DNA from: a virus
Taxonomy: Duplodnaviria; Caudoviricetes
IMG/VR virus record: IMGVR_UViG_3300028886_000082
Location: 1-64,000 of that record
Strand: one strand, 5' to 3'
DNA length: 64,000 nucleotides
The number at the start of each line of letters is the position of its first letter. Within the stretch, counting starts at the first letter, position 1. Both the position numbers and the translations under genes were made by a program. Positions 238-22,156 of this stretch are shown here, piece after piece. The notes under the pieces were generated by a model. The model was not told the origin of the DNA. It saw only the letters and a program-made list of their open reading frames with translations, and did no database searches.

Positions 238-312
238 AAGTTCTCTACCTTTCATGTCGAATTCTCTACCTTTCATGTCGAATTCTCTACCTTTGTTTAG
301 GGTAGAGAACTT
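238..312. repeat. 21-bp tandem repeat (2.5 copies) with a flanking inverted copy
   Basis: TTCTCTACCTTTCATGTCGAA at 241 and 262, partial at 283; AAGTTCTCTACC(238-249) is the reverse complement of GGTAGAGAACTT(301-312). Confidence 0.9.
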
Positions 313-316
313 TACG

Positions 317-1468
317 TCATTTCTTTTTCTTCTGATAGTTGGCCATTGTCTCAACTATCGTCCTATCCAGTACCTTGGCATAGGTCTTTTCCGTTTCTCT
401 GATTGATGCGTGACCTAACATGTGCTGCACTATGTGCATTGGTATCTGACCCTCGTTCACCAGCATGGTGGCTCCCGTGTGCCTTGCCCAATGCGTGGTA
501 ATAGGCTTGTCTATCTTTGCGTATTTGGCCGCTGCTTTCAGATAGTCGTTATACTTCTGATTGCTTGCGATCGGCAGCATGTAGTCGTACTTCTTCAAGA
601 TTGCAAGTGCAGGCTTCAACAGTACGATCGTGAATGGCTGTTCGGTCTTTATCCTATTTGCCCTATACACCACCTGTCCGCCCATATCCTCGCATTTGCC
701 GTAGTCAAAATGCTCCAAGTCAGAATAGCTCATCATCGTATAGGTTTGGAATACAAACAAGTCCCTGACCCTTGCCAAGTGTTCGGAGTCAATCTTGCAC
801 GATTCAAACCTATGGAACTCTGCAGGAGTGAGGAATCTAGTCAGTCCGTCCTCGTCACCCCGCTTGATTTTCATCTTGCTATAGGGGTTCTTGGTCAAAA
901 GACCGTCGTCAAAGGCTTGGATAACAAACGACTTCAATATTTTGTGGTAATTATATCGGCTGCTCTCTTTCAGACCTCTACGCTCCAGGTATTCATCCAT
1001 CTTTGCGATATTCTTCTCCGTGACATCGGCAAAGTAAACAATCCCTTTCCATTCATCCAAGAAGTCTAACACCACCTTATACCTCTTCTGTGTGCCGACC
1101 TTCAGACTTTTCATCTTCTGACCTGCACACTCCTTTGCATACTCCAAGAAAGTCTGTGTCTGCATGATTCTCTCTTCGTACAGCTTCGGTATGGCTTTGA
1201 TGTTGATGCAATCACCTCTCATCATCTCTGTGACTATCTCGGAACACTTGCTATAGATGATACTCAGTTGCTCGTTCAGTTCCTTCCAGCCTTGTTTGCC
1301 TACCACTCTGCCATTCACCCACTCCTTCTCGAGTAGCCAGATATTGGTACTCATGTACGTCCTCACCTTGTTATAGGTGATTCTCAACTCGACAACTCCA
1401 GTCTTTTTCTTGTCTTTCTTTGTTACGTGCTTTCTGTCAAACACGAATGTTAATTTTGGTGTACCCAT
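317..1468 (-). CDS. int: Tyrosine recombinase / phage integrase (arm-binding, SAM-like and catalytic domains)
   Basis: 383 aa; RD...F (ARVRDLFVFQTYTMMSYSD), HWARHT, MLGH and terminal Y (TEKTYAKV) motifs; Bacteroidetes arm-domain N-terminus. Confidence 0.93.
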   Translation of the reverse strand: MGTPKLTFVFDRKHVTKKDKKKTGVVELRITYNKVRTYMSTNIWLLEKEWVNGRVVGKQGWKELNEQLSIIYSKCSEIVTEMMRGDCINIKAIPKLYEERIMQTQTFLEYAKECAGQKMKSLKVGTQKRYKVVLDFLDEWKGIVYFADVTEKNIAKMDEYLERRGLKESSRYNYHKILKSFVIQAFDDGLLTKNPYSKMKIKRGDEDGLTRFLTPAEFHRFESCKIDSEHLARVRDLFVFQTYTMMSYSDLEHFDYGKCEDMGGQVVYRANRIKTEQPFTIVLLKPALAILKKYDYMLPIASNQKYNDYLKAAAKYAKIDKPITTHWARHTGATMLVNEGQIPMHIVQHMLGHASIRETEKTYAKVLDRTIVETMANYQKKKK

Positions 1469-1516
1469 GTTAATTTGATGTTAATTTAAAATGTTTGCCT
1501 AAAAATTTTTTTATTG

Positions 1517-1865
1517 GTAACACCCTTTGAAATTTCAGTAACACCTTTGGTAACACTTTTTCTGCAAAAGACTATCAAAAACTTTAGTAGATTATTAATG
1601 ATATATAATGCAGATTCATGCCCAATCGTACCTCAATTGAACGTGAATAATCCGCTTATAGACAAAGACTTATGCTGTTTTTAGTAGTATTTAAAGGGGG
1701 TTTGGAAATTTGTTAGTTAAACAACCGCCCCTCTTTATCTTTGTGATCCGTTTGGGTTTTGAACCTTTCGGAACTTTATCACACGTAAGTGTTTTAATGT
1801 CAGTTATATACGAATCTCACGCACAAGGGTTCAAAATCAACGTGGTAACACTTTTGTAACAACAC
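1517..1865. other. Putative attP: tRNA-3'-like core flanked by GTAACAC arm-type repeats
   Basis: Minus strand 1765-1741 GGTTCAAAACCCAAACGGATCACAA resembles a tRNA T-arm/acceptor 3' end; GTAACAC at 1517, 1538, 1550 and 1845, with GTAACAA at 1856. Confidence 0.6.
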
Positions 1866-1933
1866 GTTTTGATACAACTTTACAAATCCTTTTCTCCATA
1901 CATTCTTCTGTTATTTAATTAAACTTAATAACC

Positions 1934-1965
1934 TTTGCAGGGTCTTGAATTTTTCTCTAACTTTG
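1934..1965 (+). promoter_or_regulatory. Bacteroidetes sigma-A type promoter
   Basis: TTTG (1934-1937), 20-nt spacer, TAACTTTG (1958-1965), matching the -33/-7 consensus. Confidence 0.75.
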
Positions 1966-1969
1966 CACC

Positions 1970-2077
1970 CGTCAAGTTCGAGTTGACGAGTTGTGAATTA
2001 AGAATATCGCTCATACCGATATAGATGTTTGTCATCTCGTCCCCGTCAGTTACTCGAACTATCTGATGGGGACTTTT
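1970..2077 (+). ncRNA. Two-hairpin RNA with complementary loops ending in a terminator-like stem
   Basis: Hairpin CGTCAA-GTTCGAG-TTGACG (1970-1988); hairpin GTCCCCGTCAG-TTACTCGAACTAT-CTGATGGGGAC (2039-2073) followed by TTTT; the loops are complementary. Confidence 0.65.
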
Positions 2078-2530
2078 CTATTCACGAAATCCGAGTCAAC
2101 AACAAGAAACCAGTCTTTGGCTGACGATATTGTGAGACAAGGGCTTTGACCACAGAGTTAATTGTGGTGTTCGTGATGAGTTTCCAAACTACGTGTAGTT
2201 ACGGGAGGGCTTGACGGTAGAAATTGAACGCTCGACCTCTATAACACGAACTGAAATAAACAAACCCTCCGAGGCAGTATCGTAGCCAGTCGATACGGGG
2301 AATAGCACGCAAGAGGGAGGTTGGATGAGATAAGAAGACCTGTGCAGGAGTGGCAAGTTCCGAATGTTCTGAAAGCAAGTTGTAGTGCCACCTACTAACG
2401 AGCCGAGATAGGAAACCTCTGAAAAAGCGGCATGCGAAATCTCGATTATCCCCTCACTCCAATGAAGAGTCTCTTGCTCTGATTTGGGTAAGGGGAAATT
2501 GGACTCACTCGAATCGTTTCCTTTCCCCTA
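2078..2530 (+). ncRNA. Candidate long structured non-coding leader upstream of RNase HI
   Basis: No ORF of 60 aa or more in the track; many stems (ACCACA/TGTGGT, AACTAC/GTAGTT, GGAGGG/CCCTCC, GTATCG/CGATAC, GTGGCA/TGCCAC, CGAGAT/ATCTCG, AGGGGAAA/TTTCCCCT). Confidence 0.5.
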
Positions 2531-2565
2531 TGGCATGGTTTGGTTTTCGTTAATTATTATTGCTT

Positions 2566-2976
2566 ATGGAAAAATATATAGCTTATACGGATGGTAGTTG
2601 TGACAACCTTCACCCAAGAAGACCAGGAGGTGCAGCCTACATAATCTTCAATGAGGATGGATCTCTTTATAAAAAAACCTCGAAAGGCTTTCTGAACACC
2701 ACAAACAACCGCATGGAACTGCTTGCCATCATCAGCGTGGTCAACTCCCTCCCAAAAGGTTCATCCGTCACCATATACACAGACTCCAACTACTGCATCC
2801 TTGCCTGCAAATCCAAGAAGCCGAAGAAGAATAAAGACCTTGTGGAACTTTATCATCGACTGGCAGGTAAGCTCTCGTCCATCGAATTTCATTGGGTCAA
2901 AGGGCACGCAGGCAACATCTACAACGAAGAGTGTGACCGCATGGCCAATGGCGAGTACAGAAAGATGCTCTATTAA
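2566..2976 (+). CDS. rnhA: Ribonuclease HI
   Basis: YTDGS, TNNRMELLA, IYTDSNY, WVKGHAG, NEECDRMA motifs (DEDD active site); ATG at 2566 (TTG at 2560). Confidence 0.93.
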   Translation: MEKYIAYTDGSCDNLHPRRPGGAAYIIFNEDGSLYKKTSKGFLNTTNNRMELLAIISVVNSLPKGSSVTIYTDSNYCILACKSKKPKKNKDLVELYHRLAGKLSSIEFHWVKGHAGNIYNEECDRMANGEYRKMLY

Positions 2977-3042
2977 TCGGTATCAACATTTCAAAGAACA
3001 CTTAATGGGATGTAGCGTTTTGTTACACCCCATTTATTTTAT

Positions 3043-3726
3043 TCATACCCTTACCAAGCCTACAAACTTATAGAACCCAAAAATAATCTCCTTTGGTACT
3101 AAGAAGTCTGGATATTCATCGTGGTTGTAGCTCACACAACGGATATTTGCGCCTTCATCATAGATTTTCTTGAAGATTACACCATCTTCTGTGTCCAGGA
3201 CATAATCCTTTCCCCATTCAATGACAAACTCTGCTTTCTTGATGGCTATCTCGTCGCCACTCTCATACTTCGGCTCCATCGAATTGCCCTTGATGAACAT
3301 CGTGTAGTCGTAGTCAGGGAAATTTCTTATTATAGGCATCTGTTCGCATTGTTCTAGCAATACACCCTGCGAGTACTGAGAAAGGCTTCCTGCGGACGCG
3401 GAAACGGGCAATCTCGGTTTTGTAGGTAGCTTGATCACGTCTTCGGTCTTGACCTCTTGCTTTGGCTTGGCATTGCGAAGAACCTTTAACGCATCTCCAC
3501 GTCTAGCCTCTGTTACCATCTCCATGAAGTTGTCAACATTCCACAACTTTGCCATTCTCTCTGATAGTTCGTCTGACGGTAACAGTACTCCGCGTGTGAT
3601 TTTTGAAAGCGTGCCTTGTGTTGTTCCAAGCTTTTTGGCAACCTCTTTCTGTGAAACTCTAGGCTCCTTTTCCTCCAACAATCGGTTGAAGTACTCGGTA
3701 AATTTAGGAAATCTCACCTCTTCCAT
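3043..3726 (-). CDS. CI-like repressor (Cro/C1 HTH plus S24 autopeptidase)
   Basis: SQKEVAKKLGTTQGTLSKI HTH; IKGNSMEPKYESGD and FKKI S24 motifs. Confidence 0.9.
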   Translation of the reverse strand: MEEVRFPKFTEYFNRLLEEKEPRVSQKEVAKKLGTTQGTLSKITRGVLLPSDELSERMAKLWNVDNFMEMVTEARRGDALKVLRNAKPKQEVKTEDVIKLPTKPRLPVSASAGSLSQYSQGVLLEQCEQMPIIRNFPDYDYTMFIKGNSMEPKYESGDEIAIKKAEFVIEWGKDYVLDTEDGVIFKKIYDEGANIRCVSYNHDEYPDFLVPKEIIFGFYKFVGLVRV

Positions 3727-4199: not shown

Positions 4200-4988
4200 A
4201 TGAGTACAGAAATTATTAGGTTTGACAACCAGAAAGTAAAGGGTATGACCTCTTTACAAATTGCCGAAACTACAGGCAAGAATCATAAAGATGTATTGCG
4301 TGACATACGCAATCTTTTAGAGAGAGGAGCTAGCGAGCGCAACTTTGCGCTGACCTCTTACGACGACAAACAAGGTAAGGAGAGACCTATGTATGAACTT
4401 ACACCCAAAGGTTGTCTGATCCTTGCTTCAGGATATGATGTTGTTCTGCGCGAGAAAATAATCGACAAGTTGGAAGAGTATCAGCAGAACGAGGCCACAT
4501 CTGTCACAACCCTACCCGACTTTACTAATCCTGCAGAGGCAGCAAGGGCATGGGCAGAACAGTTTGAGCTTAAACAGATTGAAGCCAAACGTGCAGACGA
4601 GGCCGAATCACAAGTGTTGTCTCTTACGCAGGAGATTGCAACCATGCAGCCTAAAATATCATACTATGATACCATACTGAATAACACTTCTACAGTACTT
4701 ACCACTCAGATAGCACAAGACTATGGAATGTCTGCTGTTGCTTTTAATAAGGTGCTGAACGAGATCAGCATTCAACGCAAGGTCAATGGTCAATGGATAC
4801 TCTATGCACCTTATCTTTCTATGGGTTATGTACAATCCAAGCCAGTAACAATCACCCACACCAATGGAAACCAATCCGTCAAGTACAACACGGAATGGAC
4901 GCAGAAAGGCAGGCTTTTTCTATATGAGGAACTCAAGAAGCACGACATTCTTCCGCTTATAGAGGTTTCACAACAAGGTCTTTTTTAA
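4200..4988 (+). CDS. Rha-family regulator fused to a KilAC/ANT antirepressor domain
   Basis: [24 protein letters not shown] (Rha N-terminus); [14 protein letters not shown]...[12 protein letters not shown] (KilAC). Confidence 0.88.
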
Positions 4989-5419: not shown

Positions 5420-5506
5420 GGGAAAGTAGCTCAGTTGGTAGAGCGTCACGATAGGTTGCTGGACATCAGTGCCTGAAGGTCGCAGGTTCGAGTCCTGCCT
5501 TTCTCA
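5420..5506 (+). tRNA. tRNA-like RNA with an expanded (21-nt) anticodon loop; isotype undetermined
   Basis: Acceptor GGGAAAG/CTTTCTC, D arm GCTC-AGTTGGTA-GAGC, variable AGGTC, T arm GCAGG-TTCGAGT-CCTGC; anticodon stem TCACG/CCTGA encloses 21 nt; no encoded CCA. Confidence 0.75.
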
Positions 5507-6128: not shown

Positions 6129-6576
6129 GGCCACTGAGGTGAAGGCCAAGAAGAAACTTCCAAATAAGTTTTCAAAAAAGAAACTAATAGAGAAACTTGA
6201 CCGTATCTTCTCACAATATATTAGGCTGAAGTTTTCTGATAGCAGAGGAATATGTCAGTGTATATCATGTACGAAAAGGCAACCCTGGAATGAGATTCAG
6301 AATGGCCATTATATGAGTAGACGTTATTTCTCAACTAGATGGAGTGAGGATAATTGCAGGCCGCAATGCGTTGCGTGTAATATCTTTAATCAAGGGAATA
6401 TACAAGCTTACAGAGTTTCGCTTATTAAGCAGATTGGCGAACAACGTGTTAATCTTGTAGAGGCAAGGGCGAGACAGGAAACTTTCAAGTATGGAGAGTT
6501 TGAACTAAATGCGATGATCAAACACTACACAAAGGAAGTCGAAAGAATAGCAAAAGATAAAGGAATAGAATTATGA
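6025..6576 (+). CDS. ninG: NinG/Rap-like recombination endonuclease
   Basis: KLDRIFSQYIRL, CISC, NGHYMSRR, NCRPQCVACN motifs; likely ATG at 6025. Confidence 0.85.
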   Translation: MTLQRKTPLRAKSPLQRKSYLKSKQKSKKEKSKFEATEVKAKKKLPNKFSKKKLIEKLDRIFSQYIRLKFSDSRGICQCISCTKRQPWNEIQNGHYMSRRYFSTRWSEDNCRPQCVACNIFNQGNIQAYRVSLIKQIGEQRVNLVEARARQETFKYGEFELNAMIKHYTKEVERIAKDKGIEL

Positions 6577-15247: not shown

Positions 15248-15360
15248 GGGTGGATAGCTCAGTTGGTAGAGCATGCTGGAGGTGGAGCTGAAACCACGTT
15301 AATCATTAGCTTTAATCCAATAATATAGCAAGGTCAGTGGTTCGAGTCCACTTCCACCAA
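15248..15360 (+). tRNA. tRNA-like RNA with a 47-nt anticodon-loop insertion; isotype undetermined
   Basis: Acceptor GGTGGA/TCCACC, D arm GCTC-AGTTGGTA-GAGC, anticodon stem TGCTG/TAGCA, variable AGGTC, T arm AGTGG-TTCGAGT-CCACT. Confidence 0.75.
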
Positions 15361-21568: not shown

Positions 21569-21640
21569 TGTCAAGTGGCTTGTTTAGGGTGTTTTTTGTC
21601 ACCATAGTATTAATTATTATATTTTTTATATTTGATAGAA

Positions 21641-22156
21641 ATGAACCAGACAGACATTGATAAAGCATTCGAAGGAAGATGGCGAATGAAGGGGTATATC
21701 CTCGAAAATATAGACGGAAAAGCTGCAATGGAAATAGCAAGAGATTTCTTTGAGGCAGGAATTTTACTTGCAGGAGAAGAAGAACTTCCAGTCTGGAGAA
21801 AGCCCACTACAATAGTTGAAGCTGATATACCACCGGAATGCCTAGTAAGAGAGTCTGACATACTTACAGTTGAGGACACTTTTAACAAGTGGTGGGATCT
21901 CTACGACCTTAAATGTGGCAAGGAGAACTGCATGAAAAAGTGGAAAAAGCTTACTGCATCGGAACAAATTGATTGTATTAAGGCAACTCCGGCTTACGTT
22001 GCATCTACCCCTGACAAACAATTCAGAAAGCGACCTCTTACATATCTCAATCAGAAAGCATGGAACGACGAAATAATAATTAAAAACAATGGAACAAACA
22101 AACCTACCGCAGACCAGCAGCGCCTTGACCGCCTTGCCGACATCCTCTCTGAGTAG
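21641..22156 (+). CDS. Phage replication initiator-like protein
   Basis: FNKWWDLYDLKCGK...KWKKL...PLTYLNQKAWNDE C-terminal motif; likely ATG at 21641. Confidence 0.65.
   Translation: MNQTDIDKAFEGRWRMKGYILENIDGKAAMEIARDFFEAGILLAGEEELPVWRKPTTIVEADIPPECLVRESDILTVEDTFNKWWDLYDLKCGKENCMKKWKKLTASEQIDCIKATPAYVASTPDKQFRKRPLTYLNQKAWNDEIIIKNNGTNKPTADQQRLDRLADILSE

What the first reader, a model, noticed from the sequence alone, without database searches (positions are those of the whole stretch)
1958..2976. Promoter, ~560-590-nt structured RNA and RNase HI next to attP
Seen: a consensus promoter starts a transcript at ~1970 with hairpin loop GTTCGAG. Its complement ACTCGAA occurs in the loop of a terminator-like hairpin (2052) and again in the loop of the last hairpin before rnhA (2507). 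The span between has many stems, purine/G-rich tracts and no ORF. Established: ColE1 replication uses a ~555-nt structured RNA II cleaved by RNase H and controlled by kissing loops. Inference: either an RNA-primed origin for an episomal state, or an RNA switch controlling a phage RNase H (for example against R-loops or RNA:DNA-based defence).
Basis: partly seen in the sequence, partly recalled or inferred. Interest (0 to 1): 0.72.

Follow-up and report, generated by a model that had tools for sequence, protein, structure and literature searches.

The report
New structured phage RNA beside RNase H
A rumen Bacteroidales-type temperate phage carries, between its integrase and repressor genes, a roughly 570-base gene-free RNA with an intricate conserved fold that matches no Rfam family; it usually travels with a small RNase H gene but does not need it, and its job is unknown.

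Summary
A Bacteroides-type promoter (TTTG-N20-TAACTTTG, 1934-1965) is followed by about 600 ORF-free bases and an intact RNase HI gene (2566-2976).

**Leader.** The loop of the first hairpin (AGUUCGAGU, 1975-1983) is complementary to the loop of a terminator-like hairpin (2052-2060). This complementarity is kept in 12 related leaders in seven sequence versions. The third copy at 2507 does not covary and is probably chance.

**RNA.** The rest is a real structured RNA. For the 2262-2530 core, six homologues give 99% pairing. Thirteen pairs change on both sides, against 4.8±1.5 in shuffles (0 of 500), and these include a pseudoknot and a kissing-loop pair. The 2086-2261 domain covaries too. Divergent phages keep the same ten helices with different sequence. 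No Rfam family matches.

**Link to RNase H.** It is frequent but not obligatory. One complete relative has the leader and RNA but no RNase H anywhere. Another has the RNA straight after a promoter. Other RNase H relatives lack the RNA.

**Origin idea.** The phage has its own DnaD-like replication initiator, so the ColE1-like reading has no support.

**Best reading.** This is an autonomous ncRNA family of unknown function, gated by a two-state leader, with RNase HI as frequent co-cargo.

The parts
1934..1965 (+). Bacteroidetes-type promoter: -33 TTTG (1934-1937), 20-nt spacer, -7 TAACTTTG (1958-1965). The predicted transcript start is about 1969-1972.
   Evidence: Sequence. The pattern TTTG-N18-22-TAnnTTTG occurs 4 times in 64 kb against 1.6 expected. 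A TAnnTTTG box sits at the same place in all 12 related leaders. The consensus itself is from my own knowledge (Bayley et al. 2000).
1969..2086 (+). Leader domain. It holds the 5' hairpin (stem 1970-1975/1983-1988, loop GUUCGAG 1976-1982), two small middle hairpins, and a GC-rich terminator-like hairpin (2039-2049/2063-2073, loop 2050-2062) followed by CUUUUCU. The 5' loop (1975-1983) pairs with the terminator loop (2052-2060). A predicted enclosing helix runs UUGUGAAU 1991-1998 with 2079-2086.
   Evidence: A 9-nt perfect complement is kept in 12 leaders in 7 sequence versions. The separate-hairpin state and the extended-duplex state are near iso-energetic. L003, L004 and L025 show further versions by reading.
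2086..2261 (+). Accessory 5' domain of the RNA. It is shared with L166, L169 and L190, partly with L204, and replaced by 60-80 nt in L198 and L215.
   Evidence: RNAalifold on 4 sequences: 35 pairs, 14 with changes on both sides. Presence and absence from blastn.
2262..2530 (+). Conserved RNA core.
- PK1: 2265-2269/2313-2317
- H1: 2277-2282/2291-2296
- Long-range helix: 2297-2302/2523-2528
- H2: 2305-2308/2342-2345
- H3: 2318-2322/2337-2341
- Hairpin A: 2347-2350/2358-2361
- Hairpin B: 2382-2385/2392-2395
- A-B loop kiss: 2351-2355/2386-2390
- Pc: 2404-2409/2439-2444
- 3' domain: outer 2449-2453/2492-2496, inner 2458-2462/2484-2488, with the GGGUAAGGGG motif
   Evidence: 65 pairs are 99% paired in 6 homologues. 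13 pairs change on both sides against 4.8±1.5 in shuffles (0/500) and 0-3 in slid controls. The same helices occur with other sequences in L204 and L083. CM R1 hits.
2507..2513 (+). Third ACTCGAA copy, in the linker or loop between the 3' domain and the closing strands.
   Evidence: Present. It is kept almost unchanged in L166 and changed independently in L169, although their 5' loops are unrelated. It is probably a chance match to the leader loop.
2566..2976 (+). rnhA: a 136-aa type 1 RNase HI, co-oriented, with no terminator between it and the RNA.
   Evidence: PF00075 at 1.4e-27 and phrog_531. The residues matching E. coli D10, E48, D70, H124 and D134 are all present, and the basic protrusion is shortened.
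3007..3040 (.). Terminator-like hairpin (GGGATGTAGC...GTTACACCCC) plus a T-run, between the convergent rnhA and repressor genes. It is the likely end of the unit.
   Evidence: Read by eye. The tool's terminator scan did not list it.

Best explanation
Positions 1934-3040 form one transcription unit in the accessory slot between the integrase (317-1468, minus strand) and the S24/HTH repressor (3043-3726, minus strand). The host is a rumen Bacteroidales (Prevotella-type) temperate phage.

A Bacteroides-type promoter makes a non-coding RNA of about 570 nt with three parts:
1. A ~115-nt leader in which the loop of the first hairpin base-pairs with the loop of a GC-rich terminator-like hairpin.
2. 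A ~175-nt accessory domain.
3. A ~270-nt core of at least ten helices, with one pseudoknot, one hairpin-hairpin kissing contact and a long-range closing helix.

The core belongs to an RNA family with no match in Rfam and none found in the papers searched. The family is carried by related phages with RNase HI, with RNase HI bearing an extra N-terminal domain, or alone. Two further relatives carry an ORF-free RNA after the same leader with only that extra domain downstream, but their RNAs were not shown to belong to the family.

I therefore read the RNA as an autonomous functional ncRNA. RNase HI is a frequent, exchangeable co-cargo transcribed by read-through.

**Shown:** the promoter consensus, the lack of coding capacity, covariation in the leader, accessory domain and core, family membership across divergent phages, an intact RNase HI, and independence from a phage RNase H.

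**Inferred:**
- The leader is a two-state gate. In one state the hairpins with kissing loops favour stopping at the U-tract. In the other the 5' strand invades the terminator loop and 3' arm, allowing read-through. This would set how much full-length RNA and rnhA mRNA is made.
- The folded RNA acts in trans on a protein or nucleic acid of the host or of a competing element.

The target is unknown.
For: **Structure**
- Core: 99% of cells paired. 13 pairs change on both sides against 4.8±1.5 in shuffles (0/500) and 0-3 in slid controls. These include PK1 and the A-B kiss.
- Accessory domain: 14 of 35 pairs change on both sides.
- Many G-U pairs fit only the + strand.

**Family**
- Ten helices lie in the same order, fully paired but with different sequence, in the window, L204 and L083.
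- R1, built from this RNA's class, hits the L204 RNA (7e-5) and the L083 RNA (2e-3).
- R2, built from the RNA upstream of the N-extended rnhA of a second phage group, hits the L083 RNA full length at 5e-8.

**Autonomy**
- L083 and L255 have the leader and RNA followed by convergent ORFs.
- L084 has a promoter directly followed by the RNA.
- The complete L083 record has no PF00075 match.

**Leader**
- Complementarity is kept in seven versions.
- The two states are near iso-energetic, and in the extended state the 5' strand also pairs with the terminator's 3' arm.

**Not coding:**

**Not a known family:** no Rfam hit at the gathering threshold or at E<=10, here or in 10 relatives.
Against: - There are no expression data, so transcription, the RNA ends and termination at the leader hairpin are all predicted.
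- Only six close homologues support the formal covariation test, and they are related, which inflates shuffle-based significance.
- The cross-class helix table was built by eye. CM E-values are rough because calibration was short.
- The recurrent pairing of two very divergent RNA versions with two divergent RNase H clades suggests a functional tie that 'exchangeable co-cargo' may understate.
- Trans action is inferred only from RNA-only members. No target was found inside the phage genome.
- In the L166, L204 and L169 leaders the U-tract after the hairpin is weak, so it may be a structural helix rather than a terminator.
Confidence: 0.6

Rival explanations
1. Cis-regulatory leader. The whole RNA is a long 5' UTR (riboswitch-like or protein-binding) whose only job is to control transcription or translation of rnhA.
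For: The RNA is co-oriented and contiguous with rnhA, with no terminator between them. ORF-free structured RNAs recur upstream of rnhA in at least two divergent RNase H clades. The leader has a terminator-like hairpin with an alternative pairing.
Against: - Family members occur with no downstream same-strand gene (L083, L255, L084), and the complete L083 record has no RNase H at all.
- The spacer to the start codon varies in length (about 28-65 nt) and is unconserved.
- The terminator-like hairpin lies upstream of the large RNA, so the core cannot be its sensor during transcription.
Confidence: 0.13
2. ColE1-like RNA-primed origin. The transcript forms a persistent R-loop that RNase HI cuts to prime DNA synthesis, and the kissing loops act as copy control.
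For: The RNA resembles RNA II in size and is linked to RNase HI. It has a few G-runs facing C-runs (GGGG/CCCC). It is followed by an AT-rich stretch even in RNA-only relatives.
Against: - Both complementary loops are in the same sense RNA. No antisense promoter consensus lies in the region.
- The phage encodes a DnaD-like replication initiation protein (phrog_270, 2e-13) along with RecT, SSB and NinB/NinG.
- RNase H relatives sit in SNF2-helicase replication modules without the RNA.
- Conservation is of tertiary-type pairings (pseudoknot, kiss) rather than of a hybrid-forming tract.
- G over C excess is small (147 against 123).
- GC skew only tracks gene orientation.
Confidence: 0.08
3. P4 CI / P1 c4-style RNA immunity. 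The short leader RNA, terminated at the hairpin, is the active product. Its exposed loop pairs in trans with the matching loop on nascent transcripts of the same or a superinfecting phage and sets termination. The seven loop versions would be immunity specificities.
For: - Loop complementarity covaries as discrete 'specificities' between otherwise similar leaders: GUUCGAG, GUCGAAG, GUUCGGAU and others.
- The location is in the lysogeny region.
- The same leader type precedes different cargo: an RNA, a 267-aa protein, rnhA, or whole rightward operons.
Against: - No Rfam C4 or c4-a1b1 match.
- Both partners sit about 75 nt apart in one RNA, so cis pairing should outcompete trans pairing.
- This reading explains the leader but not the conserved 450-nt RNA behind it.
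- L084 has the RNA without any leader.
Confidence: 0.12
4. Ribozyme or self-processing RNA. The pseudoknotted core catalyses a cleavage or ligation, for example to release itself from the rnhA mRNA.
For: The fold is complex, with a pseudoknot plus a loop-loop contact. The strand order PK1-H2-PK1'-H3-H2' recalls the P3-P7-P3'-P8-P7' order of group I cores (my own comparison).
Against: There is no match to any Rfam ribozyme or intron model. There is no P4-P6 equivalent, and L204 lacks even H1. No conserved cleavage-site motif was identified.
Confidence: 0.05

Closest known systems
ColE1 RNA II / RNA I / RNase H replication priming
   Same: A structured RNA of about 550 nt starts at a strong promoter, loop-loop kissing occurs near its 5' end, and RNase HI is involved.
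   Different: Here the kissing partners are two hairpins of the same sense transcript, not an antisense RNA. The RNA family exists in a complete phage without RNase H. The phage has a protein replication initiator. No origin activity is shown.
Phage P4 CI RNA (seqA/B/C) and P1/P7 c4 RNA (Rfam C4, RF01695)
   Same: Short complementary sequences are exposed in hairpin loops of one transcript in the immunity region of a temperate phage, and they are linked to premature termination.
   Different: There is no CM match. The partner sequence lies in the loop of the terminator-like hairpin itself. A large conserved RNA follows. Trans action is not shown.
Large prophage-associated ncRNAs of unknown function: GOLLD (RF01998) and ROOL (RF03087)
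   Same: These are large, ornate, multi-pseudoknot RNAs carried by prophages or phages, with no coding capacity and unknown function. ROOL is also rumen-derived.
   Different: There is no sequence or structure match in Rfam 15. The core here is smaller (about 270 nt, or about 570 nt with add-ons). The host phylum and the helix layout differ. This RNA has its own gated leader and a recurrent RNase HI neighbour.
HEARO / omega RNA of IscB (RF02033)
   Same: A large structured RNA is encoded directly upstream of a small nuclease gene with an RNase H-like fold in a mobile element.
   Different: The protein here is a genuine type 1 RNase HI (PF00075) with no HNH, bridge helix or PLMP domains. RNase HI cuts the RNA strand of hybrids, so a guide-RNA mechanism makes no obvious sense. 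There is no CM match.
Antisense-driven transcription attenuation of pT181 / pIP501 rep leaders
   Same: Loop-loop contact decides between terminator and read-through folds of a leader.
   Different: Those use a counter-transcript. Here both loops are in cis, and no counter-transcript promoter is seen.

Membership tests
ColE1-type RNA-primed origin | Antisense RNA I transcribed from the opposite strand of the 5' part of the preprimer | tested here: not met
   No Bacteroides promoter consensus lies on the minus strand in 1969-2565, and no sigma-70-like site either. The complementary loops are both on the + strand.
ColE1-type RNA-primed origin | RNase H is needed to process the RNA. Here that would predict that the element always comes with, or depends on, RNase H. 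| tested here: inconclusive
   The complete L083 phage has the RNA but no PF00075 gene. Host RNase HI could substitute, since the family is found in B. thetaiotaomicron in the control.
ColE1-type RNA-primed origin | The fragment supports autonomous replication, and an RNA-DNA junction lies at the origin | not testable with these tools
   This needs plasmid replication assays and junction mapping.
ColE1-type RNA-primed origin | The replicon has no other dedicated initiator | tested here: not met
   Window 21632-22156 matches replication initiation protein families phrog_270 (2e-13) and phrog_9474.
Known Rfam RNA families (C4, c4-a1b1, GOLLD, ROOL, HEARO, RNase P, group I/II introns, riboswitches and others) | Covariance-model score at or near the gathering threshold | tested here: not met
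   No hit in 1958-2565 at the gathering threshold or at E<=10. None in the RNA regions of 25 related loci.
Type 1 RNase HI (PF00075) | Pfam match above cut-off and the catalytic D-E-D-(H)-D residues | tested here: met
   97.1 bits against a cut-off of 25.8. In the alignment to E. coli RNase HI structures, TDGSC, NNRMEL, TDS, KGHAG and CDRMA are all conserved.
Bacteroidetes sigma-ABfr promoter | -33 TTTG and -7 TAnnTTTG separated by 19-21 nt | tested here: met
   TTTG at 1934-1937, a 20-nt spacer, and TAACTTTG at 1958-1965. The -7 box is conserved in 12 relatives. Activity was not tested.
Intrinsic (Rho-independent) terminator / attenuator | GC-rich hairpin directly followed by a U-tract, with a mutually exclusive alternative pairing | tested here: inconclusive
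   An 11-bp stem is followed by CUUUUCU, and an alternative extended duplex is at equal energy. The 13-nt loop fails the tool's terminator rule. The U-tracts are weak in the L166, L204 and L169 leaders.
P4 CI / P1 c4 immunity RNA | A processed small RNA whose loop pairs in trans with two target sites on the early transcript | not testable with these tools
   Only cis complementarity can be seen. The putative second target at 2507 does not covary.

The most novel reading that the evidence does not exclude
The RNA and RNase HI are a functional pair of a new kind. The folded RNA would position one of its segments on phage or foreign DNA as an R-loop, and the co-encoded (or host) RNase HI would cut it. 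This could prime DNA synthesis or trigger or block a process on the bound DNA. The covarying leader loops would act as phage-specific copy or immunity determinants. On this reading it is an RNA-programmed, RNase-H-dependent device in a temperate phage.
Probability: 0.1. Interest if true: 0.9.

Novelty: new variant of a known kind. Interest (0 to 1): 0.66.

Why it matters
Large, intricately folded bacterial and phage RNAs of unknown function are few (OLE, GOLLD, ROOL, raiA, HEARO). Where one has been solved, as with HEARO and the IscB omega RNA, it revealed new biology.

This is a candidate new family with several useful properties:
- It has strong covariation from few sequences.
- It has a defined promoter.
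- It has a built-in two-state leader whose pairing specificity has diversified into at least seven versions.
- It has natural variants with and without RNase HI, which are ready-made controls for experiments.

It also shows that the slot between integrase and repressor in rumen and gut Bacteroidales phages can carry RNA cargo, not only protein 'morons'. If the RNase H link proves mechanistic, it would be an unprecedented RNA and RNase HI partnership in a phage.

Tried and rejected
- **Rfam.** Gathering and E<=10 searches on the window and on 25 related loci found nothing in the RNA regions.
- **Single-sequence folding.** z = -1.34, uninformative.
- **GenBank phages.** blastn of the region, and of the group-B RNA plus rnhA, gave no match.
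- **Genome contigs with RNase H.** Only cellular RNase HI at 45% identity or less.
- **Exact-pattern scans.** Mostly chance hits: GAAACCTCTGAAAAAGCGGCA gave 0 viral hits. GTTTCCTTTCCCCTATGG gave 5 unrelated hits. TTTAATTAAACTTAATR gave 115 hits of which only 5 loci (L243, L253, L255, L273, L326) were relevant by blastn. AACTCCGAAATACCCGAT gave only known loci plus chance hits.
- **R1 against 151 Bacteroidales genomes.** Not found in those searched.
- **R1 and R2 cross-searches.** R1 does not reach the group-B, L165, L205, L273 or L326 RNAs. R2 was run against the window, L165, L205, L273 and L326 only with default filters and gave no hit there. With filters off it gave only a chance-level full-length hit on L255 (E 0.75) and none on the L084 RNA. 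Whether the L165, L205, L273 and L326 RNAs belong to the family is open.
- **Coding under an alternative genetic code, or a minus-strand gene.** Rejected.
- **Trans targets.** A search for complementarity inside the 74-kb phage genome gave nothing below E = 0.5.
- **Operators.** No shared operator-like repeats between this promoter and the repressor region.
- **GC skew as an origin indicator.** It only follows gene orientation.
- **N-terminal domain of the relatives' RNase H, and its stand-alone form.** No Pfam or PHROG family. The ESM Atlas gave only unnamed clusters, with DnaT and DUF7833 at chance level.
- **Literature.** Three full-text searches and one paper checked found no description of this RNA.
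- **Tool failure.** One call failed internally and was rerun with fewer sources.
Full report
**Setting**

The window is the first 64 kb of a 74,242-bp IMG/VR virus record that CheckV rates complete. The homologues I found come from bovine and other gut or rumen-type metagenomes.

The left end reads as follows:
- A tyrosine integrase at 317-1468 on the minus strand (PF00589, PF13102, PF17293).
- An ORF-free stretch at 1469-2565.
- A 136-aa RNase HI at 2566-2976 on the plus strand (PF00075, 1.4e-27).
- An HTH/S24 CI-like repressor at 3043-3726 on the minus strand.
- A Rha/KilAC antirepressor at 4200-4988.

**Checking the observation**

The promoter is a textbook Bacteroides -33/-7 promoter: TTTG at 1934, a 20-nt spacer, and TAACTTTG at 1958-1965. 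That is why the sigma-70 scan saw nothing. The full bipartite pattern occurs four times in 64 kb, and none lies on the minus strand of the RNA.

The first hairpin presents GUUCGAG in its loop. An 11-bp GC-rich hairpin at 2039-2073, followed by CUUUUCU, presents the complement. The match is 9 nt long: 1975-1983 with 2052-2060. ACTCGAA recurs at 2507.

No frame is open on either strand, even with one stop codon reassigned. The longest open stretches fall in different frames in different homologues. The single-sequence folding energy is unremarkable, z = -1.34, so the case has to rest on comparative evidence.

**Finding relatives**

Nucleotide searches of GenBank phages found nothing. I therefore used the RNase H protein as a handle.

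In IMG/VR the nearest RNase H genes are 52-61% identical. Many of them also have several hundred ORF-free bases upstream. One group of about 20 contigs ('group B', with L045 and L003 as divergent members) carries a conserved RNA of about 450 nt ahead of an RNase H with a ~95-aa N-terminal extension. Another group ('group A') has a 267-aa protein in that place.

The 5.8-billion-protein search gave RNase H relatives at 63-99% identity. Their contigs, and one exact-pattern scan of metagenomes, yielded true homologues of the window's RNA:
- L166/L168
- L169/L170
- L190
- L198/L192
- L215/L216

These are 73-89% identical over window positions ~2180/2263 to 2545.

**The leader**

Twelve leaders were anchored on the TAnnTTTG box. 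In every one, the loop of the first hairpin is perfectly complementary (7-9 nt) to the loop of the terminator-like hairpin. There are seven sequence versions:

| 5' loop | Terminator loop |
|---|---|
| AGUUCGAGU | ACUCGAACU |
| AGUCGAAGU | ACUUCGACU |
| AGUUCGGAU | AUCCGAACU |
| CUGGCCG | CGGCCAG |
| CUGGAAG | CUUCCAG |
| UAGGGAGA | UCUCCCUA |
| AGUUCCAGU | ACUGGAACU |

Shuffling the 5' segment matches the observed length in 0.4-10% of trials per leader. By reading, L003 (GUUACGG/CCGUAAC), L004 (GUUGCAG/CUGCAAC) and L025 add further versions.

When the loop complement is forced into a nested helix, the 5'-most bases also pair with the 3' arm of the terminator hairpin. This extended duplex lies within a few kcal/mol of the two-hairpin state in most leaders. 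That is the layout of a two-state attenuator whose switch is nucleated by a loop-loop contact.

Two cautions apply. The U-tract is weak in some leaders. In the window-type leaders the U-tract can also be absorbed into a predicted enclosing helix (GUGAA/UUCAC). Termination is therefore inferred, not shown.

The third ACTCGAA at 2507 fails the same test. L166 keeps ACUCGAAUCG with a CUGGCCG 5' loop, and L169 has CACGAAUCACG with UAGGGAGA. Only within the GUUCGxx leaders is a partial 5-7-nt match kept.

**The RNA behind the leader**

I took six homologues (alignment A3) and a structure from RNAalifold. To it I added a pseudoknot (PK1) and a loop-loop contact between hairpins A and B that I saw by eye. 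The results were:
- 65 pairs are 99% paired.
- 13 pairs change on both sides, against 4.8±1.5 in column shuffles (0 of 500).
- Sliding the partners by 1-3 columns leaves 0-3 such pairs.

Compensated pairs occur in PK1, H1, H2, H3, the A-B kiss, hairpin B and the GAAAAAG hairpin. The Pc hairpin also covaries (CGAGAU/AUCUCG against CGAUGAU/AUCAUCG and CGAU/AUCG), but it is misaligned in A3, so I read it directly. Frequent G-U pairs fit only the plus strand.

The 2086-2261 domain covaries as well, with 14 of 35 pairs in four sequences. It is dispensable: L198 and L215 replace it with 60-80 nt.

**A wider family**

The covariance model of this class (R1) weakly hits two further RNAs at the homologous place: L204 (7e-5) and L083 (2e-3).

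A coordinate-based check shows that the window, L204 and L083 have the same ten helices in the same order, fully paired but with largely different sequences. For example:

| Helix | Window | L204 | L083 |
|---|---|---|---|
| PK1 | CCCUC/GAGGG | CCGCC/GGCGG | GCCCA/UGGGC |
| A-B kiss | UGGCA/UGCCA | GUUGCU/AGCAAC | CCAA/UUGG |
| 3' domain, inner | UCCAA/UUGGG | ACCCA/UGGGU | AUGGG/CCCAU |

The group-B/L003 RNA is itself supported by covariation (12 of 59 pairs). Its model R2 hits the L083 RNA over its full length at 5e-8. The L083 class therefore bridges the window's RNA and the RNA that precedes the N-extended RNase H of the second phage group.

None of these RNAs matches any Rfam 15 family, even at E<=10. 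Three full-text searches and a check of the 2023 catalogue of viral structured RNAs found no description.

**Relation to RNase H**

The enzyme looks active. All five catalytic residues align with E. coli RNase HI, and the basic protrusion is shortened. The link between RNA and enzyme is loose, though.

- **RNA without rnhA.**
  - L083 is a near relative whose integrase, leader and repressor align with the window. In it, positions 2085-3039 are replaced by 610 nt: a ~280-nt RNA and a convergent membrane ORF.
  - L255 has the same arrangement.
  - L084 has a promoter directly followed by the RNA, with no leader.
  - The L083 record is complete and has no PF00075 match anywhere.
- **An ORF-free RNA with only the small N-terminal-type domain protein.** L273 and L326. 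Neither CM reaches their RNAs, so membership of the family is open.
- **rnhA without the RNA.** L002, the group-A contigs, and L207-L209, where rnhA sits behind an SNF2-type helicase in a replication module.

Ascertainment is biased, because most RNA-plus-rnhA loci were found through RNase H. I therefore give no frequencies.

**Against an origin**

- The phage encodes a DnaD-like replication initiation protein at 21632-22156 (phrog_270, 2e-13).
- It also encodes NinG, an SbcC-like ATPase, RecT, an MBL-fold protein, NinB and SSB.
- There is no antisense promoter.
- G over C excess is small.
- GC skew only mirrors gene orientation.
- I found no complementary target elsewhere in the phage genome, and no operator-like repeats shared with the repressor region.

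**Conclusion**

The finding is a real and, as far as Rfam 15 and the searched literature show, undescribed structured RNA family of Bacteroidales temperate phages. In this window it takes a long form: leader, accessory domain and core, about 570 nt in all, co-transcribed with an intact RNase HI.

The kissing pair is real, but the third site is not supported. The two mechanisms offered, a ColE1-type origin and an rnhA switch, are not supported.

My best reading is an autonomous ncRNA gated by a two-state leader, with RNase HI as frequent co-cargo. Its biochemical function is unknown. Two divergent RNA versions are repeatedly coupled to two divergent RNase H clades, and this keeps a functional partnership alive as a minority reading.

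Noticed in passing
window 1927-1950: A small hairpin (ACCTTTGCAGGGT) overlaps the -33 box and is followed by a T-rich run. In relatives the arms change in step (GACCTTTGGAAGGTC, GGCCGATTGCAGGCC, GAGGCTTGCAGCCTC). It may be an insulating terminator or a protein-binding palindrome just upstream of the promoter.
   Followed up: no
window 1514-1561 and 1844-1862: Repeated GGTAACAC / GTAACA motifs lie between the integrase start and the RNA promoter, and they are conserved at the same place in L165, L198, L215 and L255. They are possibly integrase arm-type sites or operator sites.
   Followed up: no
window 240-300: There are two exact 21-nt tandem copies (TTCTCTACCTTTCATGTCGAA) plus a third partial copy. 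Each contains a TAnnTTT(G/C) box like the -7 promoter element, and they lie at the extreme left end next to the integrase 3' end.
   Followed up: no
window 21632-22156: A 174-aa ORF matches phage replication initiation and primosomal protein families (phrog_270, phrog_9474, phrog_9327). It is the likely replication module of the phage.
   Followed up: partly
L004:1570-2373 (group A relatives): A 267-aa protein with a weak MarR-like winged-helix hit occupies, behind the same kind of kissing-loop leader, the place the structured RNA has in group B, just upstream of the N-extended RNase H. A protein and an RNA look interchangeable in this slot.
   Followed up: partly
L025:2713-3000, L273:5588-5986 (minus strand), L326 ~6261-6470: A domain of about 60-90 aa with no family assignment carries the motif ...W..K.G.P...W... 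It is fused to the N-terminus of RNase H in groups A and B and stands alone downstream of the RNA in L273 and L326. It is a candidate partner of the RNA.
   Followed up: partly
window 5420-5506 and 15248-15360: Two tRNA-like genes have long insertions in the anticodon region (Rfam tRNA at 55 and 41 bits; ARAGORN calls only the first). Other findings of this scan already note them.
   Followed up: no
window 2157-2172 vs 2694-2709: A strand of a hairpin in the accessory RNA domain is 88% complementary over 16 nt to the rnhA codons for the conserved TTNN motif. The hairpin sequence differs in relatives, so this is probably chance.
   Followed up: partly
L165:491-820, L205:2130-2500: These loci have the same leader type and a close RNase H (83% and 68% identity), but the intervening ~330-370-nt ORF-free RNA is not recognised by either covariance model. 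It is either a very divergent member or a different RNA cargo.
   Followed up: partly
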